NCBI GenBank assembly: GCA_905178155.1
Contig: CAJINV010000014.1
Coordinates: 1,567,984-1,631,983 of the forward strand
DNA from: Amoebophrya sp. A120
Lineage: Eukaryota; Protista; Dinoflagellata
DNA length: 64,000 nucleotides
Reading direction: 5' to 3'
This document shows, piece after piece, positions 12,107-40,900 of this stretch. The notes below the pieces were generated by a model. That model did no database searches, was not told the origin of the DNA, and worked only from the letters and a program-made list of their open reading frames with translations. The number at the start of each line of letters is the position of its first letter. The first letter of the stretch is position 1. The position numbers and the translations under genes were made by a program.

Positions 12107-15100
12107 ATGAGGACGAGGAAAGGAGTGTGTTTATATAATAACTCACTCCCCGCGTCGGTCGCACTATGTCATCAACATCATTTTCTTTTTCTGGTACTTC
12201 TAGCTGCGGCCGCCTTGCTAGTACCGTACTCCTCCACCAGCGCAGTCGTAGCTGTACTAGCGCTGCCTCCGTTGATGTCTCGTCGTGGAACTGCATCAAG
12301 AATAACCACGACCCGGCCCCCGACGACGAGTACTGCTTCTGCTGCAGCAGCAGGAGGTGATGAGATAATACAAGGGGCTGCACCTCCACCGGCAGGCGAA
12401 AGTAGGCCTTTTCTCCAGAAGAAATCCAAATCGAGGCTGTTGCGCGGAGGTGTAGACCGTAGTGGTCGTAGAGCTGCACAAGGAGGTCGTGAAAGTGCGC
12501 CCTTATTGCAGCTGCAGGAGCCGACCTTTCTGACGTTGGCGAGATCTGATTCTGAATTTTTGTCCTCGTCTTCAACTACCATAGAGACCAGCAGCCGCAC
12601 TGGTGGCGGTGCAATCGCAAAGAGGACACATTATGCGGAGCAGGACGCAGCTGCTGCTGCACGGAATAAAAGAACGAAAAACCGAAACGCTTCCGACGAC
12701 GTGAAAAAGATAATTCGCGAGAACATCAACTACAACGCGACCGAGCAGGACGAAGATGATCCTGCGCAAAAACTAATGCGGCTGAACTTCCTTGAGACTG
12801 CAATTAGTGCAGCGGCGAGTCGGGAAGATGTTGATTCTAGGGAGCGACGAGAGCCGCCCGTCGGGTTTCGAGTTCGTCCAGTGCCCCGCGAATACTGGAA
12901 GGCATCCTGCCGGAGGCACAACGACGAAGCCTCGTGTCTGGGGGAAGATCTAGTAGAGGTGCTGGAGACCTCGATGAAAAGTATTAACCCAGAAACATCA
13001 ACATCAACCCCTCTTTATCGATCCAATGCGGAGAGCTGCGAATGGGTTCAGTGGAATGAAGATGCGTCCCCCGACGTGTATACATGCGAACTTCGCGTGA
13101 CACCAAGGGACCCACCAGACGAAAGGGGAAGTGGCGAAAAGTACCTGTTCCGGAGCAGTAGCCGGTTTCGACAGGAGACTTCTGCGCTTATGAAAAGCAC
13201 CGGGCGGTCCGAGGCGCCCAGCTTCTGCCTGGCGGAGCACACGTTTTGCGAAGGCACCGCGCAGAACCAGGGGCGTCGGTTGGGACTCTGCTGCGCCGGG
13301 TACGAGTGCCGCCGGTATCCGCACTACGCCATCATGAACGAAAGGCAGGCACAAAGCTCCTTCCCTGGCAGAACTGAAACTGCTCGCAGAGGAGAAATCG
13401 GCAGCGCGGCGGTGGAAGTCAGTGGAGCACGCGTCCGGCTCGGAGTTGCAAATCTTGTCAGTGTGTATCAAATGCAAAAATGTCTGGGCCTGGAAGAATG
13501 CTCGATTTGTTATGCAGCTTTTCCATGACCCATGAGGTCTGGAATGCAGGACCTAGCATCACAGATTTTGTGCGATGTCTCTCATGCCTATCCTGCATGA
13601 GAAACTCCCTCCCGACTTGGTCAAAACCGGACGACTTTTGGTAATCAAGCAACACAGATTTTTGCATGCTTCAGATTTTGCATGACAAGTTGCATTCTTG
13701 CAGACCCAGACATTTTTACATTTGATAGTCTGCACATCGGCCGCGACCCCACGTTCTACATCTACAAAGCGGTCGTATATGCACTGCAAATCTATCGCAC
13801 TACCTAGTATAAATCGCATGACAAATTTCCTCAGCATGAGAAATGAAATCTGTAATGCGGATTTAACTTGACGCAATCCATAAACGCGATTAGTACGAGT
13901 GCGATGCTATTGCCATGCATATCGTGCCGTTGGAGGCCATTTTCATCTTCACCTGCATGATCTATGCCACGCCAGTCAGTGACGTCTCTATGCACCGCAA
14001 TAAACGTGTCTGGGTTTGGATAAGAAAGTTCGAACTCATGCTGGTCTATACATGCCTGCGAAATTTGTGTTGCATGACCAACAAAAGCCGCTGGGCGCTG
14101 CCTCTTTTGTCATACAAAAACTAAAAGGACGCAGCTTCTCATGCGGGTTGCGCATGCCCGTGCGAAAACGTTCTGGAAAGTCAAAGTTTATCTTCATCAT
14201 CGACACTTTGGCATCACAAGTTTCCAGACCCAGACACATTTGCATTTGATAGGCTCCGGGCGACTACAACTTCTTTTCGGCATGTTTCTGACCGGCTTCG
14301 CGATCCAGTGGACCATTCTCGACCGCTTGCCCCGGGTCCCTTACTTGACCGTGCTCGATAAGTTTATCTTCATGGTCGTTGTCATCTTGTTGACGGTAGG
14401 CCTCGGCAGTTGCTGCGCGTTTCTGGTCTGGCGGAGCGAGGAGGAGGGCGACGGAGAAGATGTATGGAAGCGTCAGGATCGAAATCAACAAAATCGAAAT
14501 AATTTGTGACGCACAAAATTGATACCACTTGGGACCTCAGTTGCCAAGTGGCGCATGACAAATTTCGGGAGCACCAAAATCCAGTTTGTAATGCTGTTTG
14601 GGGAAAGAAGACCGCTCCTGTCATGCTACTCGGGCAGCGCATCTCCTTCTCCTAAACAGGCTGGCAATCGCTCTTATTTGCCTGCTCCCCAACACTGGCT
14701 CTACGTGCTCTACATTTTATGCATCACAAACTTTTCGACTTTGTCAATTTCAATCCTGACGCTTCCATAAGATGGCTCGAACCTTTATTCCTCGTCTTCC
14801 GGAAGTGGCCGCCGGTCTCTGTCCGCCTTACACAAGCCGTTTGACAGTTTGGCGAGTAAAACGGACTTCTGCTTCTGCGCGTTCGTATTGTCCGCGTTCG
14901 CTTTTGGGCACTGGCGTCTGTTCCGGGCGGTTACGCGGCAGAACGACCTGGGGAACGGTATGTACCGAAAATGGGTCCAAGGGGGGAATTGGTACAACGC
15001 CGGGGCGGAGATTGTGATTGGGTACAGGTTATCCAGTGCAAAAGTACTGCGCTCGAAGCATTCGTTGTGACAGATCTCGCTTCTCATTCTCAAGTGAAAG

Positions 15101-15258
15101 AAAAATCAGCACTGCGAATTCCATTTGCATTTGCATGAGTGCTTCCAGTAGTTGTGCGATGCTTTTGCAATTCATACAGGCTGAGGCTAGACAGCTCCGG
15201 CGATCAGGCGCGGCTTTACCAATCTAAAGGGAGACCAGTGCTGCCGATTAACTTTTGA
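12107..15258 (+). CDS. Pentameric ligand-gated ion channel-like membrane protein, six exons
   Basis: Removing five elements gives ...VHIGRDPTFYIYKAVVPLEAIFIFTCMIYATPVSDVSGRLQLLFGMFLTGFAIQWTILDRLPRVPYLTVLDKFIFMVVVILLTVG...DFCFCAFVLSAFAFGHW...: pre-M1 R-x-P-x-FY, M1, M2, the M2-M3 LPRVPYLT-x-LD motif, M3 and M4. Hydrophobic N-terminal signal-like segment; stop TGA at 15256-15258. Confidence 0.75.
13466..13727. mobile_element. IR/DR introner (GTCTGGGTCTGGAA family)
   Basis: TIR TATCAAATGCAAAAATGTCTGGG / CCCAGACATTTTTACATTTGATA; DR GTGTG/GTCTG. Confidence 0.85.
13778..13921. mobile_element. IR/DR introner (TGCAAAAGTATCG family)
   Basis: DR TCGTA/TCGTG; ends TATGCA...TGCATA; interior similar to the 31414 and 51635 copies. 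Confidence 0.85.
13989..14251. mobile_element. IR/DR introner (GTCTGGGTCTGGAA family)
   Basis: DR GTCTC/GGCTC; GTGTCTGGGTTTGGA / TCCAGACCCAGACAC; join SDVS/GRLQ. Confidence 0.8.
14463..14769. mobile_element. IR/DR introner (GTCAGGAT-GAAAT family)
   Basis: Perfect 17-bp TIR TATGGAAGCGTCAGGAT / ATCCTGACGCTTCCATA; perfect DR AGATG. Confidence 0.9.
15030..15176. mobile_element. IR/DR introner, also readable as a GT-AG intron
   Basis: DR CAGGT/CAGGC; TGCAAAAG / CTTTTGCA TIR core. Confidence 0.8.
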
Positions 15259-15810
15259 TAGCGATCATGTTGCTACAACATCTAACTTCTGGCGTCGACG
15301 TACCATAAATATTTTACGAGCGCTTACGAGCCCGCGACGGTGACACCAGCGTGCCTCGTGTAGTAGAGGACGAGTCGCTTTATGGACGAGCGTCCTGGAA
15401 TTTTTGTGCTAGTACACGTGAATTTCCACAACTTCTGTGGTCGAGGACCACTTCTTCTTCGCGTTGATCACCTGCTCTTCAGAGGCAGAACCATAATGCA
15501 AACACGCCGTCCAGTGACTAAGTGTTTCTTTCGAAAACTAGTGTTTTTTTCGAAAACTTGTGGTTATGGTTTTGTACTAAACCACAAGCTTTCGAATTTG
15601 GATTTGCCTGCTTCGGTAAAAAAAGGTGAACCGCGGTCGGTTGGCGAAGGAGGTTGTGAGTTTTGACATCTCGGCTGCGAATTTGAAGATGATCCTCGGA
15701 AATGCGCAGATCGGCTCTTGAAGTTCGCGGATCGGTTTTTTCGGTCCGGAAGTGCAAACTTTTCGATCATGCCAAAAATGCAAAAGTGTAGTTCTAATAT
15801 CTAAAAACAG

Positions 15811-16404
15811 ATTACATTAACTAGCAATATGACACATAATGCTGCAATATGACATATGGCCGCGACAACATGAAAATCCTGCAAAAACCCCACTTCTCAT
15901 ATTGTCATTTTGTTATATTGTCATATTGCATATTGCTCGTGACCGGCTGACGATTGAAAATTGGCCCCACCCGAAGCGCTGTCTCTCGGGTGTTGCGGCC
16001 ATGAGGTTAGGGCGCGTATGCTCTTGCGCCGACTTTGGGCCGATCGAGCAGGCGCCTGTTGTCCACCTCTTTCGCGCCTGTTGACAAGGCGTCTCGCCAC
16101 CCCCGCTGTTAGCGAGGGCGGCGCTAGTGCGCTGGGGCTCCCAGCAGTCTACTTCTTCAATTTGTGTCGCAGCTGCGCCATGTAGTGCGCCGCTGCGTCT
16201 TTTCGCAGCATCTTGGCCGGAAAGCTGGCCTCGCAACGCAAGTAGCGGCGGGCGCCGCCAGGTCGGCTTCCAGGTCCCGACGTTGGACAAGGTCATATTG
16301 CTCAAACTCTAGCAGTCATATTGTCATTTTGTCATATTGTCATATTGCCATATTGCCATATTGCATATTGCTCAAAGTGTCGAAATTTTGCTAGTTAATG
16401 CAAT
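15811..16404. mobile_element. MITE-like intergenic element
   Basis: 17-bp TIR ATTACATTAACTAGCAA / TTGCTAGTTAATGCAAT (1 mismatch); subterminal CATATTGT-type repeats; GC-rich core. Confidence 0.65.
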
Positions 16405-16626
16405 GTGTAAAAATGCAAAAATCAATATTCGCATTCTGAAAATTCAATTTTTCGATCCTGCTTCGGTATGAAAACAAACAAGGTGGTTTTGGTTTATGAG
16501 TGAGGTTTCAACAGATCATCGTTCCTTCATTAGAGCGACCCGCAGAGCAAGCAGTAAATCAAGTCGTTAAGAAGAAAAAGAAGTAGATGGAGGTAGAAGG
16601 GCGTTGCAAAATCAAAAAACATCATT

Positions 16627-18201
16627 TTGGGTGCCGACCAGTCTTCCAGCACGTCGCGTAGTAGAGATCATTGTCTCGGCGCCGCCGCGGCAGGAGATGA
16701 GCTACATGTTCCAAAAATGGACGAGCAGGAGAACAAAATAACTTCAACTACCACACCCTCACCCACAAGCATGCATGTTTCTCCCCCTGCTCCTCCCGCT
16801 CCCGTGCCGGCAGTGAAGAATAATTTAAATGATTTCACCCGTGGCGACAAAGTCTGGATGCACGCCGCAAAGCTCTTGCAGGAATGCGACTGCCTGGTCA
16901 TTACAGCAGGCGCTGGAATGGGCAAGGATTCAGGCTTACCGACTTTCGCGGAATATGGTGATAGGCCAGTGTCGGGTGCAGGCCTTTCCTACGTTGAGCT
17001 ATGTTCGCCAAATGCTGCGCAAAACCACTACGAAGCGTTCGACCAATGGTGGCGCGAATCAGGTGAATTGTATGCAAAAACAGAGTCTCACGATGGTTAT
17101 CGAATTCTCGAAAGCTGGCTGATGGGAGGTGCTACTTCTACTACTTCGTCTTCTACAGCGTCAAGCTCATCATCATCCTGTACAAGATCATCAAGCACAA
17201 AAACTCGCATCAGAGAGCACTATGTTTACACGAGCAATATCGATGGACACTTTAAGCGTTTTCCGAATCTTGGTAAAAACGTACTGGAGCTACACGGCTC
17301 GCTGACCTTGCCGTGGATACCATGGTGGCGTTTCGAAAGGGAAGATCCGTCGGATGAAATGGATGTAGTTGCAGTGGTAGAAAGTAGTGCCACTCCTCCT
17401 TCTTCATTTGTACCTTCCCTCGATGGAACTCGGAAAGTACCTATGTCAAACTGCGGCCCACCCTTTGACTACGATCCAGCGAAGTTGCTAAATTCATTTC
17501 CAATGTCCGATCGGAGTAGAACGCCCTGGCAGCCGCCCTCCTACGATTGCGAAACGCCCCGAGGCTATATTCCCAAAGAATACCGGCGACCGGCGGTCTT
17601 ACTTTTCTACGACAACTGCCTGGAGCTCGAGACGTTTCTGCAGCGAAAGATCGAGAACGAGTGGCGCCAGTGGGTGGACGAGGTTTTGATGAAGCAAAAC
17701 ACTAAAAACAAAGTGAAAAGTCTCGTCGTCCTGGAGCTGGGCTGTGGTGTCAGAGTGCCTTCGTGTAGGAGCGAGGGCGAAAGACTCGTGTGGGAGGTGA
17801 ATGAGCTTGCAGCTGCAAAAACGAAGAGGAAGTCGGACTCGGAAGTCGAAGTCGAAAGGAAGATTGAGGAAAAAGAAACTCCTCGCCCTACACCTACAAG
17901 AACAGCCAACTTAATCCGAATCAACCCGGCAGAGCCAACTTTTGGCTTCCTGCGCAAGATTGACAATCCGCTGTTCTGGCATTTCGACGAGGATGATCTC
18001 TGCTATCGCACCATTGCGGGCCAGGAAGAAAAGGAAATGATAGATGTGGGCAGCCTTGAGCAAGAAGATCAAAGACTACAAGGGATAAACAACGTAATTT
18101 CGGGCAATTACGTTCTCCTCAATGAGTGTGGTGCAAAAGACGCACTTCAGCATTTGGATTCACTCCTGAAGAATCGAATGAATCATGCACAAGAAGTTTA
18201 A
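16627..18201 (+). CDS. Sir2/sirtuin-family NAD-dependent deacylase-like protein, intronless (true start uncertain)
   Basis: Motifs ITAGAGMGKDSGLPTF, YTSNIDGHF, LELHGSL, RPAVLLF, VLELGCG, LIRINP. Confidence 0.9.
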   Translation: MGADQSSSTSRSRDHCLGAAAAGDELHVPKMDEQENKITSTTTPSPTSMHVSPPAPPAPVPAVKNNLNDFTRGDKVWMHAAKLLQECDCLVITAGAGMGKDSGLPTFAEYGDRPVSGAGLSYVELCSPNAAQNHYEAFDQWWRESGELYAKTESHDGYRILESWLMGGATSTTSSSTASSSSSSCTRSSSTKTRIREHYVYTSNIDGHFKRFPNLGKNVLELHGSLTLPWIPWWRFEREDPSDEMDVVAVVESSATPPSSFVPSLDGTRKVPMSNCGPPFDYDPAKLLNSFPMSDRSRTPWQPPSYDCETPRGYIPKEYRRPAVLLFYDNCLELETFLQRKIENEWRQWVDEVLMKQNTKNKVKSLVVLELGCGVRVPSCRSEGERLVWEVNELAAAKTKRKSDSEVEVERKIEEKETPRPTPTRTANLIRINPAEPTFGFLRKIDNPLFWHFDEDDLCYRTIAGQEEKEMIDVGSLEQEDQRLQGINNVISGNYVLLNECGAKDALQHLDSLLKNRMNHAQEV

Positions 18202-18499
18202 CATGATTATATTCGTGGAAAAATAAATACTAGCGCTGCTGCTGCTGTCGTGTAGCTCGAATCTCGCTCCTGCTCTGAGTGGAAGAGTATTGGCACTTCT
18301 TCTCTTGTTTCCATGTGTTCATCTCCACCCTCAAGAAATGTTGCGTCGAGGGTTGCAGATGCAGCTCCTACAGCCTGCACACCAATTGATGTTTCTTTGT
18401 GGCGTAGCTACTTCTGCGAGTCTTACTAGTGAGGTAAGAATATTGCTGGCGAGACGCAAGTAAAGACAAAGATAGAACACATACCAATCACAATCTATC

Positions 18500-21400
18500 A
18501 TGACGAAGATCGTTTTTTCCCTCCGCGTTCTCCTCTGCACGGTGTCGCTGCAGTGCAGCCGTGTCTTGCAGCTGTTGAGCTGCCATGATTGCCTGTTGTC
18601 CACGTCCACTGTCTTGGCGCAGGGGCAAGCAGCGCACTTACACGACAATTATGCTGGGCCGAACAAATTAGAATCATCTCCCCCTGCTCGTGTCGCCAAG
18701 AGGAAGCGAAAGAAATCAATCCGGGCCCTCGTCATCTCCGATATTCACGACAATATCGAGCAAGTGGAGCGGTTGGTCGCTGCCGAATGCAGCAAGACGG
18801 GCAAAAAAGCTGCGGCAGATGTTGAACTTGGTTTTGAAAGAAAAACAAGCAACTTCTACGATTACGTGTTTATCCTGGGTGACTTTTGCCGCGTCAACCA
18901 CCTCCCACCGGATGAAAGTTCGGACGCTGAATTTCAAAAATGCGACGCGTTTACGGAGAAAGTGCTGAGTCAATTCGCAACTCAGTGTACTACTATAGGC
19001 AGAAATTTTGAAGAACAAGAAGTAGGCATGAGCGCAAATAACAGCAGTAGCATCGTGATTGGTGTTTTTGGTCTAGATGAGAGCAAAACTGCGAAACCCA
19101 CCACGACCGAGCGCAACCCTCCACAACCCTCCGCAACCCACCGCAACCCTCCGCAACCCACCGCAACCCTCCGCAACCCTCCGCAACCCTCCGCAACCCT
19201 CCGCAACCCTCCGCAACCCTCCGCAACCCTCCGCAACCCTCCGCAACCATCCGCAACCCTCCGCAACCCTCCGCCACCCTCCGCAACCCTCCGTAACCCT
19301 CCGCAACCCTCCGCAACCCTCCGCAACCCTTCGCAACCCTCCGCAACCCACCGCAACCCTCCGCAACCCTCCGCAACCCACCGCAACCCTCCGCAACCCT
19401 CCGCAACCCTCCGCAACCCTCCGCAACCCCCCGCAACCCTCCTCCCCCCGCTCCGCTGGTGTTTCCTTACTCCCCCCGCTTCTTATGTGTGATCTATGTA
19501 TGTAGTAGCTTTGTTTTCTTTCTTTGGAAGAATGAAAAAAAGTATAAAGAAGAAGCCTCCCGCAACCCGCCCCCCCCGCTCCGCTGGTGTTTCCTTACTC
19601 CACCCGCCTCTTATATGTGATCTGCTATGTATATGGAGCTCTGTTTTCTTGTTTTGAAAGAATGACAAAAAGTATAAAGCATGAGCCCGCTGCAACCCTC
19701 CTCCCACCGCTCCGCTGGTGTTTCCTTACCCCCCCCCGCTTGTTACATGTGATCTGTTCTGCTATGTAGAAGGTTGGCTTTGCTTTCTTTTTTTGAAAGA
19801 CAAAGAAGAAGAAAAAGTGTAAAGCGCAAATTATATTACGAGGCTGCAGCGATCGGCTGCGTTGGTTATGGTTTCTGGATCTACCCAGATCGCTGCAGCC
19901 CCATAGTATCCTTGCTATGTTGTAGACTTTTTTTCATTCAGCAGCGTTGCTATATGCCTAGCGCGCCACATATAAGTAACAAGCGGAGGGGAGTAAGGAA
20001 ACATCAGAGGAGCGGGGGGAGGAGGGTTGCGGCGGGTTGCGTTGGTTTCTGGATCTACCCAGATCGCTGCAGCCTCAACATTGGACGCCTATGCTTTGCG
20101 CTTTTTTCATTCTTAAAAAAAAAAAGGAAGCAGCGCGACTATATACATAGCGCATCACAGAGAACAAGGGGGAGGAGTAAGGAAACACCAGAAGAGCGGG
20201 GGGAGGGGGATTGTGGTGTGTTGCGGGGGGTTGCGCTGGTTGCTGGGTCTACCCAGATCGCGGCAGCCTCCTCGCTTCCTTATGCTTTATCCTTTTTTTT
20301 TATGTATTCTCTTAAAAATAAAAACAATGCCACTATATACATAGCAGATCACATAGATATAGCAAGCGGAGAGAGTAAGGAAACACCAGGGGAGCGGGGG
20401 GAGGGGGGCTGCGGTGGGTTGTGGTGGCTTGCAAATTTATGGCGTGTATTATAGTACTACTTTATCTTTTTTTATTCATTCTTTGAAAAAAAATAAAAAA
20501 CAAAGCCACTTTATACCTAGCAGATCACATTATATTTATTATAACAAGCGGGGGGAGCAAGGAAACACCAGGGGAGCGGGGGGAGGAGGGTTGTGGTGGG
20601 TTGCGGTGGGTTGCGGAGGGTTGCGGTGGGTTGCGGAGGGTTGCGGAGGGTTGTGGTGGGTTGCGGTGGGTTGCGGTGGGTTGCGGAGGGTTGCGGTGGG
20701 TTGCGGTGGGTTGCGGCGGATTGCAAATTTATGGGGTGTATTGTAGTACTACTTTATTTTTTTTATTCTTTTCCAAAAAAATAAAAATCAAAGCTATTAC
20801 ATACGTAGCAGATCACATATAACAAGCGGGGGGAGTAAGGAAACACCAGGGGAGCGGGGGGAGGAGAGTTGCGGAGGGTTGCGGAGGGTTGTGGAGGGTT
20901 GCGGAGGGTTGCGGTGGGTTGCGGTGGGCTGCGGTGGGTTGCGGTGGATTGCAGATTTATGTGGTGTATTGTAGTACTACTTTATTTTTTTTATTCTTTT
21001 CCAAAAAAATAAAAAGCAAAGCTATTACATACGTAGCAGATCACATATAACAAGCGGGGGGAGTAAGGAAACACCAGGGGAGCGGGGGGAGGAGAGTTGC
21101 GGTGGGTTGCGGAGGGTTGCGGTGGATTGCAGATTTATGGCGTGTATTATAGTACTACTGTATCTTTCTTTATGTTATAATATAATACTAATATTATATA
21201 TCTATAATATAATACAATACTAATATATATTATAATAATAGTAATAGTAGAAGAGTAGTAGTACTACTATGCGTATGCATATATGCGGGGGGGGGAAGAG
21301 GTTCGCCCGCGCGCGGAGTTCGGTTTTTTTCCTTTTTTTTCAAAATTGAGGAACCGGCCGGGGATCCAATTCGTTGCAGTTCTTGCACAAGTAGGAAAAA

Positions 21401-22770
21401 AATGCAAATCACGACGCTACTGCTGCTATTTGCTCTCATACCAAGTAGAAGATCACCTTGTAGCACGAAATGCAATAGGCCCGGAAGATGATCTTCGACA
21501 CGGTGCAACTTCGACTACACCTACGACCAGCGCTTCTTCAAGTAGCTCGAAAAATAATGCGCAGGACAAACATCATCATAGAGTTCTCTATATTGCAGGA
21601 AATCACGATCGCAAGGAGAGAACGCCCTCTACCGTTGGAACGCCAGAAGGAACGGCACCAGGATCGTTCCTCTCCACATCAATTAGTAGGAACCTCACCA
21701 ACGGCCTCCAGCTCCTCGACACTGACCTCGCTGTCGCTGGCCTCGGTGGGTCCTCGTCGGGCGGCTATCTACGGCAACGGTGGTACGAGCCGGCTTTACG
21801 GTCGGAAAAAGAGTACAAGGCCCAGAAAAATGTCGAAAACGTTTGGCCGTTTGCCGCGCACCCCTGGACCAGCGACGAACAGTTTGGTTCGGCGTTGGAG
21901 AAGCTATTGGCTCGTCAGTTTTGGACGCTGGAACACCAAAAACGACGCGAGGTGGTAAAAATACAGCATAATCATCAGGCAGAGGCAAATAATCGCATAG
22001 CAGGAAACAAGAGTGAGGCTGTGGTCGCTGGCGATGAACAAGAAACAGCGCTAGGAATATTAAAACAAGACGAAGACCAGGAGAACATGCTGGAAACTTG
22101 CCGCAAGAAAAACGAAACAGCGCAAGAGCGTCTTCAGAGAAGTGCTTATCTGCTGCAAGACTTCCAGATGCAGCTGATTCTCCTGACCCACACGGGTCCC
22201 CACGTAAGCTCTACCGCGGTCTATACGCTGAACGAAACGCACGGAATCCACGGGGGTAGTCCAGAATTGACGCACGTTCTGATGCGACACAGCAGTCGTG
22301 TGCTGGATGGTCATAATGATCCCCCACGAGCTGAACTTGATCCTGAAGTAGACAGCAATTACACAGGTGGCGCTGGAGCAAATTTAGCTTCTTGTAAGGC
22401 GAATAAAGGGGTGGTCGTGGAGGACCATTCCGACAAAGACCTCGCCCCTTTTCATCCAAAGCGAATCCCTTTGTTGGCGAACATTCATGGGCACATTCAT
22501 CCAGCGAACGGAATGGACTCGACCTTTCCTAATCACCTGAAAATCATAAATCCCGGGCCCCTGTACCTCGGGAGCTATGCCGAGGTGGTGTTTTCCAAAC
22601 TTGTTAATGCACATGACAAGAAATCTGGAGATGATGGAGTTGCAATAGAAGATGATGAAGAAGACAAGAACGCCGACGTCCGTATAACCGGCCGAACACC
22701 TGAGACAAACAAACCGTTTAAGCAAGTATGGTTTTTAGACGAAGTGGCTTTCAAGAGTGCTGGAATGTGA
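18500..22770 (+). CDS. Calcineurin-like metallophosphoesterase, two exons (18500-19025, 21449-22770)
   Basis: Motifs ISDIH and LGDF in exon 1; AGNHD, LLTH, HGHIH and INPG in exon 2. A GC...AG intron 19026-21448 gives in-frame EQEV/EDH. Confidence 0.85.
19025..21442. mobile_element. Expanded IR/DR intron carrying a nested foldback minisatellite insert
   Basis: TIR GGCATGAGCGCAAATAACAGCAGTAGCATCGTGATT vs AATCACGACGCTACTGCTGCTATTTGCTCTCATACC; DR AAGTA at 19020-19024 and 21443-21447. Confidence 0.85.
19111..21127. repeat. 10-bp minisatellite (CCGCAACCCT)n and longer modules arranged as inverted arms
   Basis: About 33 units at 19111-19440; reverse-complement arrays (GGGTTGCGGA/T) at about 20586-20720, 20870-20950 and 21095-21127; module GCTGGTGTTTCCTTAC on the left is mirrored by GTAAGGAAACACCAG on the right. 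Confidence 0.95.
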
Positions 22771-23408: not shown

Positions 23409-23476
23409 ATTGGCACCTGCATAATAGTTACAGTAAAGCTGGCGTCCTCATCTGCTCCGTCTAGTACAACTCTAAA

Positions 23477-23713: not shown

Positions 23714-23849
23714 ATCTTGAGCCCTGTGCTTAGAGAGCTAAACCCCCGGGTTTAGTTATAATTTTTTTTTGTTTATCCCCTTGGGTTTTACACTTGGACG
23801 CGCCTGGTTTTAGACTTTGAAAAATTTCGAAAAACTAGGAACCACAAAC

Positions 23850-30855: not shown

Positions 30856-33465
30856 GTATGGGCGTACCGACAAGGCACTTATCCTCAAGAAAAACTACGA
30901 CGTCCCCACCACCCTGCACACTTGTGGTCAACACCAGTGTAGTGGTGCTTGGCTGCGAAAGCAGGATCACAAAGCGATTACCGTGTAAATATCGTGAACA
31001 AGACGAGTTGTGGAGAAATAGCAATACAAGTTCGATGGAAGCATTAAGAACTACAACCTTAGAAAAATAGTGTTGCTCCTCACTGGGATCATGCGCGTCG
31101 TGAGACGAGACATGCATCCTCAGTATCATGTAAATTCAAATTGGCATGACAAGACATGAGAAGAACTCTGGGGAGGTCGTGGGGACGTTTTTCCTTAGGA
31201 TGCCCTTCCGGGGAAAATCAAGGCCAACGTGGAGAAGCTGACGCCGGAAAGGTTGATGTCCATGAACGGGGGTGTCACCGAGGAACTAGTGGTCGGCAGC
31301 GAACCCCCGGGCGCGTGGGTGTCGTGGCCGGACGACTTGCTGCTGTGCCCACGAAATAACGCCTACAGCTACGCGAACCTCGCGCACCGGAAAAATTGCT
31401 GGCGGTCCCAGTCTATGAACTGCAAAAGTATCGTACTCGTATAAATGCATTACAAATTTCCTCAGCATGAGAAATAAAATTTGTAATGCAGATTTGACTT
31501 GACAAGGAAATTTGTAATGCATGACTGCAAGATACTTTTGCACAGGATACAGTCGCAGATGTTTACGTTGATGAACGTGGCGGTGCCGTGCGGTGGCGTC
31601 GTCGTCGCCGCAGAGGAGGTATGCATTGCAAATATGTCTGGGTCTGGAAGATGGCGAGACTTCTCATGCTAGTTTGGCATGGCGCTGAGCTCTGTATTGC
31701 GTGGCCACGAACACCTCCTCTTGTCTGTCATGCAAAAACGATGCTTCTCATGCGGAATACGCAACACAGAGCCACGAGAAAATCTGTCATGCTTGGCGGT
31801 GCATTACAATGCGCTTTCTGTTCACTGACATGCATCACAAGTTTCCAGCCCCAGACACATTTGCACTTGATAGGAGGAAGAACTGTTCGGGGTCCCGTTG
31901 GAAGCGTGGCTCGCGGTGTTGGGCGGGGTGGTCATCGTCGTGGTGGTCGTCGTTTGCTTCATCGGGAAGGAGCGGACCAAGCTCGCGTTCCTTGACGCGT
32001 GCATTTGCTTCTTCCCGCGGGAGGTGAGGGAGAAGCGCGCGCAGGAGAAACAGCGGGCCCGGGAGGCGATGATGGACATGAAGCAACTGGATGCGGAGGA
32101 AAGGGAACTGGACGCTGCGGAGAGGGAACATGTCCGGAAGAAGCAGGCGCTGGAGAAGCACCACGCGGCGTTGGACGACACGAAGCAAACCCACGCGCTG
32201 GGCTATCAGAAGGAAAAATCCCCCCTCCCCACATCGAAACGAAGTTTCTGATGCTGGATTTGCGTACACAAATCAGATTTGTCTTGCAGTAGAGGACTGC
32301 AGGCCCATATCATGCCCATGCACAGAGGTTTTGGCCTAGGCAGTTAGCATGAGGAACGTCTATGCCGTAGAAGGACCAACAGCATTACAAACCGCCTGCA
32401 TAATGGGGCGGAGTCTGTGGGGTTGCTTTCTTGCATCACAGATGCGATTTGTGGTCACAAATCAGCATGACAAATTTTCATAGGCCTGCCTTATCGATAT
32501 GGGGAGAGGGGATTTTTCCTTACGATATGGGCCACACGCAAGCGAGTTCGAAGGCGGACCAGCTGAAGGTGAACAAGGCGGCGCTGGTATTCCGTGTAAA
32601 AACATCCCCACGACCCCAGAGTTGTCATGCATTTCTGCATGCCAAAAAAGTTTCTCATGCGGAGCCCTATGAGAAGCATTTTCTATTCGTGTTTTGGCAT
32701 TTGCGATGCTAGAATCAGCATCCTATGCTAGATCTGTGATGCTTCTGAACTAGCTAAACAGGACTACACTACGAGGACAAACTTGTCATGCCAAACAACC
32801 AAAGCTGGCTGATTTGTCTAGCAGATTTCCCATCTTGGCTCTGGTAGGTGTGGGGCCGTTTTTAATCAGGATAGCTGGACCGCGCGGCCAATGCGGACTA
32901 CGTGGAGAGGCTGGATAACAAGTTGCACACCAACTACAACGAGCCCATCGAGCCGATCACGGCCAAGGTGTCGCCAGAAATCGAGATGCGGGGTTTGTTC
33001 CCCGCGCGGCGCTCCCCCTTTCAGCCACCGCCCTTGTACGGGCACAAGGTGGTGGACTACGAGCAGGAAAGGCAGGAGCTCGAGCAAACCTCGAAAATCA
33101 AACTCTCGGCCAGCGGACCGGGGGGCCCGGGCGCGCCGCCGAAGCCCCCACCACCAAAGAAGCCGGTGCCGTGGGTGGAAGTAGCGGGGGTGCCGACCAC
33201 GCCGGTTCCACTGCGGACGGCGCCCGTGAAGTTGGACGAAAATGATGGCGTTGAAAAGCCGCCGAGTGGTGGTCCCAGTGGTAAACAGGCGGAAGGCGGT
33301 AATGTTAAAGCGGGTGAAACTACAACAAGCACAACCACAACTGGAGGGCAAAGACCAGCTAGTAGTAAACCCGGAGGAGGTGGTGGTCCTGTGACAGAGG
33401 TGGAGTTGCAACACCACAAACAACAAATGTTCACCAATCCGATGGCAAAAATTGCAGAAGTGTAG
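30856..33465 (+). CDS. Multi-exon single-pass membrane protein with a coiled coil and Pro/Gly-rich tail (5' end unresolved)
   Basis: Five elements removed give one frame: DKAL/PGKIKANVEK...WRSQS/QMFT...AEE/EELFGVPLEAWLAVLGGVVIVVVVVVCF...HALG/HTQA...AAL/DRAANADYVERL...IAEV*. Confidence 0.7.
30880..31202. mobile_element. IR/DR introner (AAAAAC-GTCCCCA family)
   Basis: TATCCTCAAGAAAAAC..GTCCCCA / TGGGGACGTTTTTCCTTAGGATG; imperfect DR. Confidence 0.65.
31414..31549. mobile_element. IR/DR introner (TGCAAAAGTATCG family)
   Basis: Perfect DR CAGTC; first ~80 bp nearly identical to 51635-51789. Confidence 0.9.
31620..31872. mobile_element. IR/DR introner (GTCTGGGTCTGGAA family)
   Basis: Perfect DR GGAGG; frame restored. 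Confidence 0.9.
32204..32527. mobile_element. IR/DR introner
   Basis: Perfect DR TGGGC; AAGGAAAAATCCCC / GGGGATTTTTCCTT. Confidence 0.9.
32588..32873. mobile_element. IR/DR introner
   Basis: Perfect DR GCTGG; TAAAAAC..CCCCAC / GTGGGG..GTTTTTA. Confidence 0.85.
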
Positions 33466-34998
33466 CAAAAAATCGATTCTTGAGAGGAAGAAAGTAGCAG
33501 AAGCCCACAGCAGCATGACTGGCGTCGATCGACGTCACAAGGGAACTGGGCGACGGCATCAGCTGCACACTTGAACTTCTCACGAAGTAACGTTTTTCTC
33601 TCTGCTATTCCATCAAATTTTCGTTTATTTCCAGCACATTTTTTATTTTTTCATTTTCTACATTACGGCTTGCCAACTCGCCCCCTAATATTGGTCTTGC
33701 CTTTATTGCTCCTTGATGTTCAGAAATATTTATCTATAGACTTTTTCCTAAATTGAGGAATGTTATGTAAGTGCATCAAATGCATCAATAAAAGCTTTTA
33801 CATCATGTACAGTATCAGTAATTTACTCCATTATCTATGTTTCCTCAATTCATCAAATTCAAATTTAGCCAGTAGGTCCTCATGCCCCCTTGCTCTTCGT
33901 TTTACATGTTGTGGTAAAAAGAATTTTATTCGAGTAGTCACGAACCAGCACCGGCTGTTCACGTTGATAAAGCTTCTTTTGCTCGCGTTGTATCTGAATC
34001 ACATCAAGGGAAATCTTGCAGCGGAGGCCCAACTACCTGCGCATCGTTGCTGCGTTTTTCCGTTGCCCACGTTGGGGGGAGGTTCGTTTCGGTTTCTGTT
34101 CGATTGGTATTCACTTGTCAGTCGAGGTCGACAAGGCACAGGATGATTGGTATCATGTATAACTACAAGCTTATTTTCCAGTACAGGTTTAGAAACAGCC
34201 GGATTCCATGATGAAGAGCAGGAAATCACACACACATGAGGGGAAGAAGGTTGAGCATTTATGGAGCGGGGGCAGCCGCCTAAAGAAAATTTGAGGTTGA
34301 GTTGAGGCTCAGCTTGCACTTGTTTCGGCGGGTTTTGCGTATATATCTGCCCTGCTGCATGAGAGAGTAAAAGAAGTTTTTTATCTCCTACTCCTATTGC
34401 TTTTTTTCACCTCGTCCAAACTTTGTCTCGTTGGATGAACGAAGAGTGAGAGCAGGAGCACAAGGACAAGCAAACAAGGCCGCGCAGCACAGGAGAAGGT
34501 GAAGGACTTTTGCTAGTGTCTGTTGCTATTTCAACATCAGCGTCCGATCTTGGTGTCGACGGTCCTTTTGTTTTTGTTGCTCGGAGAAGCAGAAGCCCCC
34601 TCCTCCTGTGTTTGTTGTACCGCCTCGCGCCATCCAACGACGAACGAGAAGGGAAGAGGCCGCTCAGCATTGAAAACTACCGAATGCTAGTGTACGTGCT
34701 GCTCCCCCTCTTGGTGTAGTGTTTTGTCCACCTGACCTGGCTGCAAGCAAGAAACACGGTTTCCCCTTGACGGACCTGCTGTCGTGGCTCGCGGCTCGAA
34801 GGAGCCGCGCTCCTCCTATCCTCCTCGACCTCTTGTTCTACGCGTGTCGTGCAGCACTGCACAGGAAAATAGGAAAACAAGAACGCCGCGACGAGCCGTC
34901 AGCTGCAACTGAGAAAGGTGCTGCTGAGAAGCACTGTTGAAGTGGTTGTGCAACTTCATTTTGCTCCGCAACAAAGGAAGATAAAGTAAAGATTGAAG

Positions 34999-37900
34999 AT
35001 GAGCAAGCCGACGAAAAACGCCAGCAAGAAAACCACTGCAGCCGCCCCCAAGAAATTAGCGGTTCATACTAACGCCGTCATTTTGCAAATGCAATATCTA
35101 TGGATTTTATTCCGCAGTGCTCTTATAGACAACCTGATCTCATCCATTTCATCATCTGTAACGCATTTCATCTTGCCTGTCATCTCCTCGGTTTTTGCTA
35201 TAGTTCTTAAGCAAAGAAGTAAATCCACAACATGAACAACATTGACATTCATAGGCTTTCACTTTTTCAAGAACTCGCCGGCTTATTTCATCATCATCAG
35301 GCTCCCAAAATTCCTGGTCGCAACCCCCGGGAATATGCGGTGGTCTCTGCAACTTGGCTGCGCAAGATATGGAGGGATTCTCAAACGTTACGCTCTCAGC
35401 TGTTACGTGATGGATTTGTGATGCAAAAACAGCAAAAGCGAAAGAGGGAAGATTGCGCACTTCGCATAACAAGAAAATCTCGTGGGGCCTGGTGCGAGAA
35501 GATGAATTTGTTATGCGAAGTGCCTTGATTGTGTGGCGGCTTATGCTACTTACTTAATTTAGCATGGGTACAAAGCAAGCAACCGTTGAGGGCGTAACGT
35601 TTGGGAACCCCATACAAGATCCAAACCGAGTTTCCCACGAGCGCAAATACAGCGTCACCGACAACGGGTACTACAGGCGGAGCTGCAGCAGAAAGTAACA
35701 AACCAAGCAGGGTTGTGAAAAATCCGAACAACTACACAAACATCCCGTCGAGACAAATTTCGCACCAATCCGAGCAGCCCGTGCAGACCAGCCGAATCCC
35801 GGCACCGCGGGCCGATGCTCTTGACGAAGAGCTTTCTCGGATGGCAGTGGCGGGCAAGCCCTCGCTTATCCCGCCACCAAAAGTGGTGGCGCAGCACGGT
35901 AGTGGTACCAACGCGCCGGCGCGGGGAAAGATGGCGGCGGGGGGGCAAGGGGTCGCCGCCACCGGGACGAAGAAGGGCACTGGTAAAATGAGTGGCGGGC
36001 GTGCAGCTGCTATCAAATGTAAAAATGTCTGGGTCTGGAAGAATGCAACTTGTGATGCTGCATTTGGATTCCAGAAAAATCTGTATTGCATGAGTACCAA
36101 AAGGAATGCAATTTTTGCTACGCGGAGAGGGCATGTGTCATGCGGAATAGGCATCAAGAAGCTCTCAAAAAATCTGTGATACTAAGGCATGCATAACAGA
36201 CATCAGGGCTCATGCAAAACGTGCATGACAAGTGTCAGAATCTTCCAGACCCAGACATTTTTACAATCCATAGCTGCTCCGGGAAAGCAACAGGGAGCTG
36301 CAGGCACTATAGGGGCGTTCGATCATGTGCAGGTTGGCGTGCCAGGAGGGGGAGGAGTCGGTGGAGGTTCTGAAAACATCATGAATCTCGTGCCCCCGCA
36401 AGACGATAACAATGTGACCATCACGAACTTCGGAGGAGGTGCTGGTGGGGCACCCGCACTGGTTGGAGCTCCGGCCGGTGGTCCCCATCAGAGCAACCCA
36501 TATCAGCAACAAGGAGCGCCTCTGCGCTACAACGACGTCGCACCTGCTGCACAGCCAGGACCTCTAAACAACTACCACCCAGCAACCTCTTCCACGAGTA
36601 ATCCGTATGGTTCCCCGTCCGGAGTAGGGAATAATCAGAACTATGTATCAACCAGAAATAAAGTGCTAACGTGAAGGGTTTTTTTGCAGCAGATGGGCGT
36701 GAAGATGAGAGATTTATATATTCGTCTATGTATAATCGTGCATGCCATGCAAAAATACGAATGCACCATGTGTCGTCCTCACATTACAAACACAATATCT
36801 TTACAACTACCCGTTGACACTTTTTTCTGGGATACTTTCTGGCGAACAACCCTTTGTACCAACCCGCCCAGTATCTGCAGCAGCCGCCAGGCTATGGTAG
36901 TTATGACCACAGGGCCGCACCCCAACACCAGCACCTCCAGCACCCTGGTGCCACGAGTACTACGACCTCTCCACACCAGCCGCAGTCCAGTAATATGCAA
37001 CTCGCCGGGCAGAACATTGTCTACCCTCGTGGCCGCAGGGACCCGAACGCGCCGCATCCGCACTCGCCCTCCACGGTGCAAAACCCCTTTGTTCTGGGGC
37101 CAGCAGCTCCGGGGCAACAGCATGGTAGTAGTTCTATGATGCAGCAGCAGCAGCCGACGTCTATGGCGCCGTTGGGGAGCCAACACGTGCAACACCCTGG
37201 AGGCGGAGGTGGACCTCCGCAAAGTAATTACCTAGCAGCCCCTGCGCCTGCTCAAGCCGGCCGAGCAGGACCGGGCGTGCCGGTTGGTGCGGTGGGAGGG
37301 CCGTATCATCTCCAGCAGCGACCTGGCGTTGGTAATGTGGTAGCTGCGCCACTGCAGCAATATCCGAACCCATACCAATATCCCAAGCAAAAAGTGTTAC
37401 AGTTTCTACGCATTTGCTGTGAACAAGACTAAGGCAACACAAACTTTCTCTAGTGCATAGTAGTAGTAGACGAGGAAACCTGCAAGGAAGACCAAGGCAG
37501 AGATCACGATAAGCAGGCTGAGGAGCTGCAATATAAATAACAAGGCTTCTGAGCCTATCTTCCGGCGTAACAGAGCTTGCTTGGTTTGCAACACAATGTG
37601 TGCAGCACTTTTTTCTTCGCATAACCAGCAACCCGGCGGGCCTGCTCCTCCGGTCAAGAACTACTACGGCCAACAGCACCAGCCGGTTCCGACGGGGGCA
37701 GGTGCAGGTCGTATGCACTGCCAAAGAATTATCATCGCATTCACTAGAAGTAAAAACAAGTCTACCATCGGTTGTGGTCGCATGAGCAATTTCATCTACC
37801 ACGGCGGCAAATAGATGAAATTTCAATTTGTATATGCAGATCTCCATAGAAGGATCAGATCTGCCATTTTGCATCAACGTTGGCATTGATAAGAAGAAGC

Positions 37901-40900
37901 GCGCTAGTGGTCATGATGATGATGGTACTTACTTTTACAGTGGATAGCCCCGGGCGGGCAGCAAGAACAATATCACCAGCACGTGCAGCCCAGCAACAGA
38001 GTTGTCAACCTCGACGCGCCGGTCAGGCTAGAAAGCCCCCGGGGTGGCAGGAAGCTTGTGGTGCACCAGAGAAATATTAATCACAACAACATGCCACCGC
38101 AAAATCAATTTCAGCCGCCTGGCGGGGTAGGAGGTGGACATATGCCACTTCAGCAACTACCGGGAGGCGGAGGTGCAGCTAGTGGCGCCGCCGGCCCAGC
38201 AAATAATTACCCAATGCAGCTTCAGCAGCCTGCTCCTTTCCCGCACACCGCGCACCAGCCTCAAATCCTCCAGCTGGGCCACCCGCACCCGCCGACGTCC
38301 CAACTACCTCCCGGCGCGGCTGCAGGACCAGGAGGGTACGCGGAATTCACTCCGCCGGCGAACGTCGGCCCCCCGGCGGCTTTCGGCTCGGCGGGCGGGC
38401 CGAGCAGTGGGGGCAGCGGGGCCGGGATGTATGGACTGATGAACAACACGCCGCAGTTGCCAAGCCCCGGCGGAGTTGCCGCAGTTGCAGCCCCCGCGCC
38501 GGCGCATCAACAACTACCAGTCACGACGCACCAATTAACCAATAACCGGATCATATGGAGCTGTCAGGTTTGAAATCGTCAAAGTTGAGATAGTTTGCCA
38601 CGCATAGAATGCAACGCAGAAAGCGCCTGTCTTGCAGAGTAGGCAAGCGAGGCAGATTGTAAGCCTGTTTCGGGGTAGAAATAGAGCTGCTGAAGTAGCA
38701 CGACAAAAGGCGTCTTCCTTACCCAAACAGCATTACAAACTGGACTTCGGCTCTACTCATATTTGTCATGCGCCGCTTAGAAAATGGGCTTGCAACTGGC
38801 ATCGATTTTATGCATTACAAGTTATTTCAACTTCGTCGATTTCAACTCTGACACATCCATAGATGAATTCCACGAAGCTTTTTTTCGACCCGGAAGAGGA
38901 GGAAAGACTGCGCCGATATGAAAGCCTCAGAATGGAAATCCTCAAAGTGGAAATGATTTGTGATGCATGAAATGCAAGGCAAAAAAGACTGTATTGCGGA
39001 GGACACAATGGAGACCGACTATTGTCCTGCTAGGGGTGAAGAATTGGAGTGCTGCTTAGCACGCGAGAAGGGCACCCCTTTGCCTTAACCTGCATGACAG
39101 ACATGCTTTAAGGGCCCAGGAAATTTGTCATGCGCCGACTACAAATGGTGCTACAACTGGAGTCGTTTTTTTGCATTACAGTTTCCACTTTGAGGATTTC
39201 CAACCTGAGGGTGTCATAGCCGAAAGCGCATGGACCAAGCCCGCGACCTGGCGCAACAGGTCGAGGAAAAACGGAGACAGCGGGAGGTATGGGAGTGTCA
39301 GAATCGAAATTGATAAAGTAAAAGTTGTACAAAATGTAATTTGGCCTGTCTTGTGAGAGGCGGAAAATGAGGCGAGCCATAACATAAGCCTTTTTCGAGG
39401 TAGACAGCTTTCTTTGTCCAAACAGCATGACAGACTGACTTCAGGCGTTCCCAAAATTTGTCATGCACCAGTGAGCAAGTGGGTCGGGGTCCCGGTCCGG
39501 GTCCAACTGGTACCTTTTTTTATGCATGGCAAATCAGAATTTCAGCCTTGTGGATTTCGAACCTGGGAGATCCATAGGAAGAGGAGAGGCTGAAAATGGA
39601 GGAGGAGAATCGGAGTATCAAGTGCAAATATGTCTGGGTCTGGAAGACGAGTGAGACTTGTGACGTTGCCTGTGCATTCTAAAGATATCTGTGTTGCATG
39701 AGCAGCAAGAGGAGTCCAGTTCTTGGCACGCGGAGTGGGCGTCTCGGATGCGTGATAAGGAGCATCAAGAAGCTCCTCTCAAGAAATCTGTGAGGCTACG
39801 ACCCGCATCACAGACCCCACGGCTGCGGGTCATGCAAAATGTGAATGGCCAACCTTGCGGTGCAACCTTCCAGATGACCCAGACATATTTGCAATGCATA
39901 AGGAGAGAGGACGAGCGCATCCAGCGCGAACAGGAGGAAATGCGGCACAGATATGAGCAGGAAGTCGGGTACTTCTAGTATGAGAATAAGAATAAGTAGC
40001 TATCTTCAAGATGGACGGACCACATGATCAACCAACTTTAATTCTATATAGAAGTATTTGTATTTGTATTTCGAGTTGTCTGACTGTTCGCCCGGCGCCC
40101 TTGTAATTTGGTTGGTTTTCTAAATCATGTTTATGTTACGACCCGCAAGAAGTCTATACCTATAGACGTCTAAAAGTAAAAATGCGCATCGATTTTTGTA
40201 TATGAAACTACCTACAACAGATGAGTAGAAAATTAAAATCTCCACAGCCCCGGCCGCGGCTCATCTTCCACAAACGACCCGCCACAGATGATGCACAGCA
40301 GCACGCCAAACTTGCAGAATAGCACAACCGGACCGCCACCAGGCCACCACCAGGAGAACTACAACCACGCGAACAACTATCAAAGTAACTATGGAGAAGT
40401 GGAGATTTCCGTCCAAGGCTATGATCCACAAAAAAAGACCCAACATCCCCATCCAATTTTTGTCATGCAAAACACGCATCAAGTTCAAGTCCTGTGCTTC
40501 TCATGCAGAAAATGGATGGAGGTGGGTGCTTTATTTTCCAGGTGGATAAGTTCGGCGGGATAGTACCACAAGGCGGGGGAGGAGGTGGTACTCATGCTCC
40601 AGCTGGTGCACCTCCGCCGCAACCGCTACCCGCGACGTACAGTAATGATTACAACCAGCAGCCAATGAACAACTACAACAGCTACCAACAAGCGCCAGCG
40701 CCGATAATGCAGCAAAATCAAAATCTAAGTCAAAATCCGAACCTGTACGGGTCGCCCAATATGTACGCTGGTAGCAGCCTTGGCGGACACGACTCGTCGT
40801 TTCAAGAGGAAGACTACAACTACGGGATAGAAAACACTTCGTATCAGGATGAAAAGTGTCCTTCATCTACAGACGCCGGAAGACGAGGGGAAAACGAAAA

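What the first reader, a model, noticed from the sequence alone, without database searches (positions are those of the whole stretch)
14463..38861. Same-family elements occur in both orientations within same-strand genes
Seen: TCCAGTTTGTAATGCTGTTTGGG (14580-14602) appears as its exact reverse complement at 38722-38744. Likewise 13466-13727 vs 36011-36272, and 4119/49630 vs 46781, have inverted interiors, yet all host genes are on the + strand. Known: spliceosomal introns are polar (donor, branch point, acceptor). Inference: removal is strand-symmetric, either RNA stem-loop-guided cut-and-ligate splicing or DNA-level excision like ciliate IESs, which also leave one DR copy.
Basis: partly seen in the sequence, partly recalled or inferred. 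Interest (0 to 1): 0.85.

Follow-up and report, generated by a model that had tools for sequence, protein, structure and literature searches.

The report
Two-way transposon introns in Amoebophrya
Small transposon-like elements, already described in this marine parasite, sit inside its genes facing either way; they are present in the DNA and absent from transcript-like assemblies, so they are likely cut out of the RNA, probably because both ends of an element carry the same start signal for a relaxed splicing machine.

Summary
Observation confirmed. The window encodes two proteins identical to Amoebophrya sp. A120 records, and the repeats are its published introner elements: TAT…ATR inverted ends with a 5-nt flanking direct repeat (DR). 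Families A, B and C lie both ways in + strand genes. In 144 loci from other contigs family B splits 36:36 against the predicted host strand. Contigs of probable RNA runs skip element+5 nt at 9 of 9 elements in 100-19060, and four more follow from contig lengths; both orientations of family B are among them. A DNA run keeps the elements, so IES-type excision is unlikely. Removal is not symmetric, though. DR mismatches place the cut after DR base 3 or 4 (RNA), probably 4 (gene models): N|TAT…ATA·NNNN|. That register follows the transcript and matches the local GTAY donors. Best reading: MITE-like transposons whose inverted ends give a relaxed spliceosome the same donor either way (0.55). Rival: Euglena-type hairpin excision (0.28). 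Either-orientation introners are published for Aureococcus and Polarella; I found no orientation or fixed-register statement for Amoebophrya. The scan had noted a related intron family in another genome.

The parts
14463..14769 (+). Family A element, reference orientation, 307 nt, DR AGATG/AGATG, in a Cys-loop-channel-like gene
   Evidence: joint 14456/14769 skips 312 = 307+5 in X3, X4, X5; terminal stem, z -9.5
38554..38861 (-). Family A element, reverse orientation, 308 nt, DR GATCA/GATGA (mismatch at base 4)
   Evidence: inverted interior; removed in model P0001, whose Ile710 needs the left copy's base 4; no RNA contig covered it
38917..39218 (-). Family A element, reverse orientation
   Evidence: removed in P0001
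39288..39576 (-). Family A element, reverse orientation
   Evidence: removed in P0001
56578..56904 (+). Family A element, reference orientation
   Evidence: element+5 opens a + frame of 179/895 nt; model P0004 starts inside it
13466..13727 (+). Family B element, reference orientation, DR GTGTG/GTCTG (mismatch at base 3)
   Evidence: joint 13463/13731 skips 267 = 262+5 and keeps the left base 3
13989..14251 (-). Family B element, probably reverse orientation (weak call), same gene as 13466, DR GTCTC/GGCTC
   Evidence: joint 13985/14254 skips 268 = 263+5 and keeps the left base 2; orientation z 7 vs 0 against 31620, 5 vs 2 against 13466
31620..31872 (-). Family B element, reverse orientation; reads GT..AG in the base-4 register
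   Evidence: X3 contig 9 lacks exactly element+5 (gaps of 64 and 55 nt); orientation
36011..36272 (-). Family B element, reverse orientation, DR GCTGC/GCTGC
   Evidence: removed in P0001; DNA contigs enter it from both flanks
39616..39900 (-). Family B element, reverse orientation
   Evidence: removed in P0001
59277..59980 (-). Two near-identical family B elements (about 59277-59545 and 59707-59980), reverse orientation; ends and DRs not cleanly resolved
4119..4233 (+). Family C element, reference orientation, DR AAAAC/AAAAC
   Evidence: joint 4108/4229 skips 120 = 115+5 in contigs that also skip two GT..AG introns
49630..49738 (+). Family C element, reference orientation
   Evidence: removed in P0002
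46781..46888 (-). Family C element, reverse orientation, same modelled gene as 49630
   Evidence: removed in P0002
40420..40548 (-). Family C element, reverse orientation, DR AAGGC/AGTTC
   Evidence: Gly838 of P0001 needs the left base 4; spanned intact by a DNA contig
13778..13921 (+). Family D element, DR TCGTA/TCGTG (mismatch at base 5)
   Evidence: joint 13772/13922 keeps the right base 5
15030..15176 (.). D-like element, orientation unresolved, DR CAGGT/CAGGC; also readable as GT..AG with the cut after base 3
   Evidence: joint 15022/15175 skips 152 = 147+5
31414..31549 (+). Family D element
   Evidence: absent from X3 contig 9; a DNA contig crosses its left junction
394..909 (.). Two D-like elements (394-527, 751-909)
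   Evidence: joints skip 139 and 164 = length+5
5515..5748 (.). Element of another family, DR GCTCT/GTTCT
   Evidence: joint 5511/5751 skips 239 and keeps the left base 2
32204..32873 (.). Two further elements (32204-32527, 32588-32873)
   Evidence: absent from X3 contig 9 by exact length
5061..5259 (+). Canonical intron GTATAG..CAG, donor reference (also 7487-7748)
   Evidence: joints; ends printed

Best explanation
These are the Amoebophrya A120 introner elements, short repeats with TAT…ATR inverted ends and a 5-bp flanking repeat that lie in genes in both orientations, likely spread as non-autonomous DNA transposons, and are likely removed from the pre-mRNA by a relaxed spliceosome that would read whichever inverted end lies upstream as its donor. 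Shown: both orientations; element+5 nt missing from transcript-like contigs; elements kept in DNA contigs; cut after DR base 3 or 4. Inferred: the cut is after base 4, so the intron is N-UAU…AUA-NNNN. U+2, A+3, U+4 then come from the element end and match the canonical GUAY donors of the same genes (U6 ACAGA-box pairing at +4 would fit). The 3' site is probably set by position, 4 nt past the other end, which the terminal hairpin brings close, without an AG. One full DR copy is left, so the protein is spliced in frame. The interior needs no polar signal, so orientation does not matter.
For: Identity: P0001 and P0002 match the window at 100% and are named Amoebophrya sp. A120. End consensus TAT, then G/C, then an A run at positions 11-14 fits the published A120 IR (PMC7789003 section 11; 5-bp DR in the Fig. 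S19 legend). RNA level: 9 of 9 elements in 100-19060 skipped by length+5, beside two GT..AG introns; four more by exact arithmetic. DNA contigs keep 15 elements; element bins reach depth 1e4-3e5 against about 45. Orientation: family B 36:36 by a Markov strand call and 11:10 where ORF and Markov calls agree; neighbouring B pairs 15 opposite, 10 same. Register: the five RNA junctions with a DR mismatch give 3 or 4; models give at least 4 at 38554 and 40420 and at most 4 at 36646, 41612, 46101, 51970. Donor match: 6 of 7 canonical introns start GTAY and 7 of 7 have a pyrimidine at +4 (two RNA-shown, five from models). All 9 listed predominant A120 non-canonical pairs are NT-NN and all 9 of A25 are TT-NN (Table S4 rows). 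TAT and position 4 are kept at each end independently of pairing (position 4: 21 of 41 vs 19.5 expected). The paper reports 83 of 89 spliceosomal proteins, U2/U4/U5/U6 in A120, and snRNP27 undetected; SNRNP27K loss goes with +4U donors in yeasts (PMC10581693 abstract).
Against: No branch-point enrichment: YTRAY in 12 of 46 3' windows vs 14.6 shuffled. No AG: 2 of 44 end in AG in the base-4 register. No preference for G at +1 (47 G at DR base 5 vs 47 C at base 1 among 163 perfect DRs) and no 5'/3' asymmetry of the ends, including +5. U1 was not detected in A120. Base 4 rather than 3 rests on two gene-model residues; the same model misplaces the 37712 junction, and 15030 reads GT..AG with the cut after base 3. 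Table S4 may reflect aligner preferences, and the paper calls the border position unknown (Fig. 3 legend). No lariat was observed. The RNA status of X3-X6 is the tool's guess, from 2 samples of 1 study; contigs, models and tables may share data. No transposase was found or sought in the genome.
Confidence: 0.55

Rival explanations
1. Same transposon-derived elements, removed from RNA by a separate, non-spliceosomal or specialised machinery that recognises the terminal hairpin, cuts 1 nt before and 4 nt after it and ligates the exons, as proposed for Euglena nonconventional introns.
For: 41 of 44 elements lack any GT/GC-AG register; no branch-point signal; strong terminal stems in both orientations (z -9.5 and -7.2; mean pairing 0.6-0.75 at end positions 9-20); U1 undetected; Euglena precedent (PMC12501133 passages; PMC11282704 section 6). 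An RNA enzyme can also be polar, so the register does not exclude it.
Against: No sign that pairing is selected on the RNA strand: G-U vs A-C 62 vs 64 in the window (summed) and 184 vs 168 in other loci, p 0.42. End positions 4-8 pair in only 17-26 of 41, and four elements show no predicted terminal stem. The cut gives the same U+2 A+3 Y+4 as canonical donors. The paper finds the IR/DR layout in 15% of canonical A120 introns, whereas hybrids are rare in Euglena.
Confidence: 0.28
2. Spliceosomal, but each orientation carries its own conventional polar signals (branch point and acceptor) inside the extended inverted ends, for example the CTGAC of family A or the motif GCAT[GCT]ACA about 40-50 nt from each end.
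For: GCAT[GCT]ACA lies inside elements in 35 of 41 forward and 32 of 33 reverse window hits, with clusters 40-50 nt from the ends. Family A ends hold CTGAC in both orientations (sequence).
Against: No general YTRAY excess; families C and D lack such a motif at their ends; no AG. The motif could equally be a transposase-binding site.
Confidence: 0.12
3. DNA-level excision like ciliate IESs, leaving one DR copy in a somatic or stage-specific genome.
For: One DR copy is left; the elements are transposon-like; only one DNA run (contigs, which drop rare variants) was laid, and only 15 of its 711 joints were shown.
Against: X1 contigs span 15 elements with no difference at single-copy depth and cross the junctions of 31414 and 32588, which the RNA-like contig lacks. 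Element sequence is deep in X3 while several unique bins are at zero, so elements appear to be transcribed. A two-ended DNA cut has no reason to follow transcription, yet the register does not flip at 13989 (RNA), 38554 or 40420 (models). No germline/soma split is known for this genus (recalled).
Confidence: 0.04

Closest known systems
Amoebophrya A120 introner elements (Farhat et al. 2021, PMC7789003; read sections 10, 11, 12, 16, passages, and supplement passages/Table S4 rows)
   Same: Same strain by 100% protein identity; non-canonical introns with IR starting TAT and an A run, 3-5 nt DR, hairpin, many families, RNA-supported junctions.
   Different: In the parts I read there is no analysis of element orientation (the 4 'orientation' hits in the text and 3 in the supplement concern genes) and the border is called unknown. 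Here both orientations are tallied and a single register is inferred. Figures were not visible to me.
Either-orientation introners of Polarella glacialis and Aureococcus anophagefferens (bioRxiv 10.1101/2020.10.14.339549, passages)
   Same: TIR/TSD transposons that create introns in either orientation with no change in mRNA length.
   Different: Those use GT/GC/GA..AG sites taken from the TSD or the element end and show an orientation bias; here 41 of 44 have no canonical register and no bias was seen for family B.
Euglena nonconventional introns (PMC12501133 passages; PMC11282704 section 6)
   Same: MITE-like origin, terminal pairing, DRs at junctions, no GT-AG.
   Different: Different end motifs (CAG/CTG); circular products and rare hybrids reported there; not tested here, and the donor here resembles the canonical one.
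Fritillaria borealis non-canonical introns (PMC11282704 section 6; PMC13326754 passages)
   Same: TIR/TSD-derived non-GT-AG introns handled by a modified U2 spliceosome; U6 ACAGAGA-box contacts proposed.
   Different: AG-AC/AG-AT borders, U1 conserved; unrelated sequences.
Ciliate IESs (recalled; one preprint seen only as a search listing, 10.1101/2022.05.02.489906)
   Same: Transposon-derived, one flanking repeat left.
   Different: IESs leave the DNA; these elements stay in the DNA run laid.

Membership tests
Amoebophrya A120 introner elements | 8-20 nt terminal inverted repeat starting TAT with a downstream A run | tested here: met
Amoebophrya A120 introner elements | 3-5 nt direct repeat at the exon/intron borders | tested here: met
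   5-nt DR, 173 of 205 bases identical, 19 of 41 perfect; no sixth base; 163 of 201 perfect in other loci
Amoebophrya A120 introner elements | repeated families | tested here: met
   depth 1e4-3e5 vs about 45; 268 elements in 144 loci, 0 in shuffles of 40 loci
Amoebophrya A120 introner elements | spliced from transcripts at non-canonical sites | tested here: met
   13 elements missing from contigs of probable RNA runs; 11 of these 13 have no GT/GC-AG register. RNA status is a tool guess backed by two skipped GT-AG introns
MITE / non-autonomous TIR DNA transposon | TIR, TSD, short non-coding body, insertion in either orientation | tested here: met
MITE / non-autonomous TIR DNA transposon | cognate transposase or empty-site polymorphism | not tested
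   no genome held; the fetched loci gave only element-level matches to the window; the paper reports no putative transposase in A120
U2-type spliceosomal intron | GT/GC..AG borders | tested here: not met
   3 of 44 have such a register
U2-type spliceosomal intron | donor-like U+2, A+3, +4 in a register polar to the transcript | tested here: inconclusive
   RNA gives base 3 or 4; base 4 rests on two model residues and Table S4
U2-type spliceosomal intron | branch-point consensus near the 3' end | tested here: not met
   YTRAY 12 of 46 vs 14.6 shuffled
U2-type spliceosomal intron | lariat product, dependence on snRNPs | not testable with these tools
   only poly(A)-type contigs or non-matching raw reads were available
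Euglena-type nonconventional intron | terminal RNA pairing required for splicing | tested here: inconclusive
   stems predicted for most; no G-U over A-C excess
Euglena-type nonconventional intron | full-length circular excision product | not testable with these tools
   no back-joint among the 13 joints, which is not informative for contigs
Ciliate IES | element-free junctions in genomic DNA | tested here: not met
   one DNA run: 15 elements spanned intact, no such joint among 15 shown of 711; other life stages not tested

The most novel reading that the evidence does not exclude
Amoebophrya A120 has a dedicated, U1-independent RNA machinery that recognises a transposon's paired ends and removes any such insertion whichever way it faces, cutting 1 nt before and 4 nt after the hairpin without branch point or AG: a transposon-neutralising splicing system distinct from the spliceosome, serving tens of thousands of introns.
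Probability: 0.25. Interest if true: 0.85.

Novelty: already known. Interest (0 to 1): 0.42.

Why it matters
The elements are published for this strain and either-way introners are published for other protists, so the system is not new. How A120 splices about 65% non-canonical introns without a detected U1 is still open (PMC7789003). Two details narrow that question: the interior carries no required polar signal, and the junction seems fixed at N|TAT…ATA·NNNN|, which turns the 'highly variable' splice sites into one rule with U+2, A+3, U+4. The rule can be tested genome-wide on existing RNA-seq through DR mismatches, would correct gene models (37712 here), and tells which bases to change in a reporter to separate a relaxed spliceosome from a hairpin cut-and-ligate system.

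Tried and rejected
No whole genome is held. No RNA holder was listed on record. X3 barely covered the genes at 35-50 kb, so the A-reverse and C-reverse copies have gene-model support only; splicing efficiency by orientation could not be measured from contigs. Pfam found nothing for the channel exons except a weak unrelated hit, and a sub-threshold CCDC66 match for P0001. The atlas tool was unreachable twice. Branch-point test negative. G-U vs A-C test negative. G at +1, AG at the 3' end, and 5'/3' end asymmetry: none seen. DR mismatches were skewed to bases 1-2 over 4-5 in the other loci (28 vs 11, p 0.009) but not in the window (12 vs 14, p 0.85), so I do not use this. Host strands in the other loci are predictions (ORF and Markov calls agree in 62 of 71; 67 of 268 elements had no call and 104 no family); the loci were picked with a family B end motif. 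Two of 46 elements (59277, 59707) were dropped from the 44-element counts for unclear ends; the pairing counts use 41 (48387, 52347 and 52398 also left out). Family D orientation in the window is mostly unresolved. Literature searches for an orientation statement: plus in-paper searches; none gave one for Amoebophrya. Gozashti 2022 allows opposite-orientation matches in its methods. Figures, the bioRxiv supplement and the datasets of the Gozashti papers were not seen and may hold such data.
Full report
Observation. This is not only the inverted ends: trimmed interiors align inverted far above shuffles. A scan for YAT…ATR ends with a 5-nt flanking repeat gave 32 candidates against 0-3 in shuffles; I curated 44, about 12.4 kb of the window. 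Family A: 14463 and 56578 one way, 38554, 38917 and 39288 the other. Family B: 13466 (and probably 50508) one way; 36011, 39616, 59277, 59707, 31620 and, weakly, 13989 the other. Family C: 4119 and 49630 one way, 40420 and 46781 the other.

Identity and host strand. Two exon queries returned proteins 100% identical to the window and named Amoebophrya sp. A120. P0001 maps to + 34999-44447 and P0002 to + 45683-53834; P0002 removes both a C-forward and a C-reverse element. Removing the joints seen in contigs gives + strand frames of 2170, 671 and 262 aa against 345, 191 and 154 on the minus strand. The exon before 14463 matches Cys-loop channels (E 0.003). The gene at 31.2-34 kb is not resolved by ORF length (412 vs 409 aa). 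The anatomy matches the A120 introner elements of PMC7789003 (sections 10, 11, 16).

RNA or DNA. On 100-19060, contigs of four probable RNA runs (2 samples, 1 study) gave 13 joints: nine skip an element plus exactly 5 nt (9 of 9 elements there), two are GT..AG introns in the same contigs, two are unrelated. On 30900-50890, X3 contig 9 has gaps of 64 and 55 nt, exactly what removal of four elements plus 5 nt each predicts. Family B is thus removed in both orientations: 13466 forward, 13989 (weak orientation call, same transcript) and 31620 (host strand likely +; it can be read GT..AG) reverse. For families A and C the reverse copies have gene-model support only. The DNA run X1 spans 15 elements with no difference at depth 39-47 and crosses the junctions of 31414 and 32588; none of the 15 joints shown, of 711, was an empty site. 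X1 may be the source of the assembly, and contigs drop rare forms, so stage-specific excision is unlikely rather than excluded.

Orientation at larger scale. A family B end motif fetched 144 loci (365 kb) from other contigs, holding 268 distinct elements, with 122 in the first 40 loci against 0 in their shuffles. Against predicted host strand, family B splits 36:36 (Markov), 24:15 (ORF) and 11:10 (both agree); D 10:14, A 3:5, C 2:4 by Markov. Neighbouring B pairs are 15 opposite, 10 same, while the paper puts 98.5% of A120 genes in co-oriented blocks. No orientation bias is evident.

The cut is polar. Where the two DR copies differ, the contigs keep the left copy at base 2 (5515, 13989) and base 3 (13466) and the right copy at base 5 (13778, 15030): the cut is after base 3 or 4. 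Model residues need at least base 4 at 38554 and 40420 (both reverse copies) and at most base 4 at 36646, 41612, 46101 and 51970. The same model misplaces 37712, and 49774 is ambiguous, so models are weaker evidence. With base 4 the intron is N-TAT…ATA-NNNN. A register tied to the element would flip to base 1 in reverse copies; 13989, 38554 and 40420 do not show that. Canonical introns here start GTAY in 6 of 7 cases, and the nine predominant A120 non-canonical pairs in Table S4 are all NT-NN, those of A25 all TT-NN. The first three bases and position 4 of each end are conserved without covariation, which points to sequence reading of each end.

Against a plain spliceosome: only 3 of 44 elements have any GT/GC-AG register and 2 of 44 end in AG at base 4; no YTRAY excess; no G preference at +1 and no difference between upstream and downstream ends; U1 undetected. 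Against a pure hairpin mechanism: no G-U over A-C excess, weak pairing at end positions 4-8 and a few elements without a predicted stem. Neither set is decisive; no excision product was seen.

Mechanism. Most likely (0.55): non-autonomous TIR transposons with a 5-bp target duplication insert either way; a relaxed spliceosome reads N-UAU at the upstream end as donor and takes the 3' site 4 nt past the paired downstream end, leaving one DR. Transposition, the base-4 register, U6 pairing and positional 3' selection are inferred. The link between SNRNP27K loss and +4U donors comes from yeasts (PMC10581693, abstract only) and snRNP27 is listed as undetected in A120. Rivals: Euglena-type hairpin excision 0.28, orientation-specific branch points in the extended ends 0.12, DNA excision 0.04.

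Known and new. The elements are published for this strain. Gozashti 2025 attributes A120 introners to TIR transposons and retroelements (PMC12130899, passages). Another Amoebophrya has GT-AG introns and U1 (PMC12005148, passages). In searches and the in-paper look-ups I found no orientation tally or fixed register for A120; figures and some supplements were not visible. Verdict: a real feature of a known system, with a useful, testable refinement. Interest 0.42.

Noticed in passing
window 19025-21448: A 2.4-kb palindromic, satellite-filled insert with different ends (GG(C/T)ATGAG) and a 5-nt DR AAGTA interrupts a gene; an X6 contig joins 19025 to sequence that matches 21449 onward, so it appears to be spliced; it can be read GC..AG.
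   Followed up: partly
window 23475-29903: Copia-like LTR retrotransposon, 239-bp LTRs 100% identical, 5-bp target duplication CTAAA, probably recent; family call by eye from the reading frames. Same TSD length as the introners.
   Followed up: partly
window 47596-47938: Model GT..AG intron whose end resembles a family B end followed by 4 nt (ATA-CAAG) and whose start is G-TAC: possibly an old element turned canonical in the base-4 register.
   Followed up: partly
window 52398-53372 within 52347-53696: A 975-nt element nested in another element; 48387-49524 also holds an internal duplication and a GC-rich insert.
   Followed up: no
window, many elements: Motif GCAT[GCT]ACA is shared by unrelated families on both strands, with clusters 40-50 nt inside each end: candidate transposase or splicing-factor site.
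   Followed up: partly
window 37712-37946: Model P0001 places this junction 15 nt inside the element; the TIR and frame suggest a corrected border.
   Followed up: partly
window 41796-44201: A 2.4-kb model GT..AG intron filled with two tandem-repeat arrays.
   Followed up: no
window 284-11299: One X4 contig of 9895 nt runs across two neighbouring + strand genes, suggesting overlapping or read-through transcripts; a contig does not prove one RNA.
   Followed up: no
window 15815-16400: Non-TAT inverted-repeat element in an intergenic stretch, with a joint 15843/16372 in X3 and X5 that may come from another copy.
   Followed up: no
window 12095-15100: Cys-loop ligand-gated-channel-like gene interrupted by five elements.
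   Followed up: partly
window 38917 (run X9): 126 raw RNA reads carry a family A end joined to a foreign flank: an element copy kept in RNA at another locus.
   Followed up: no
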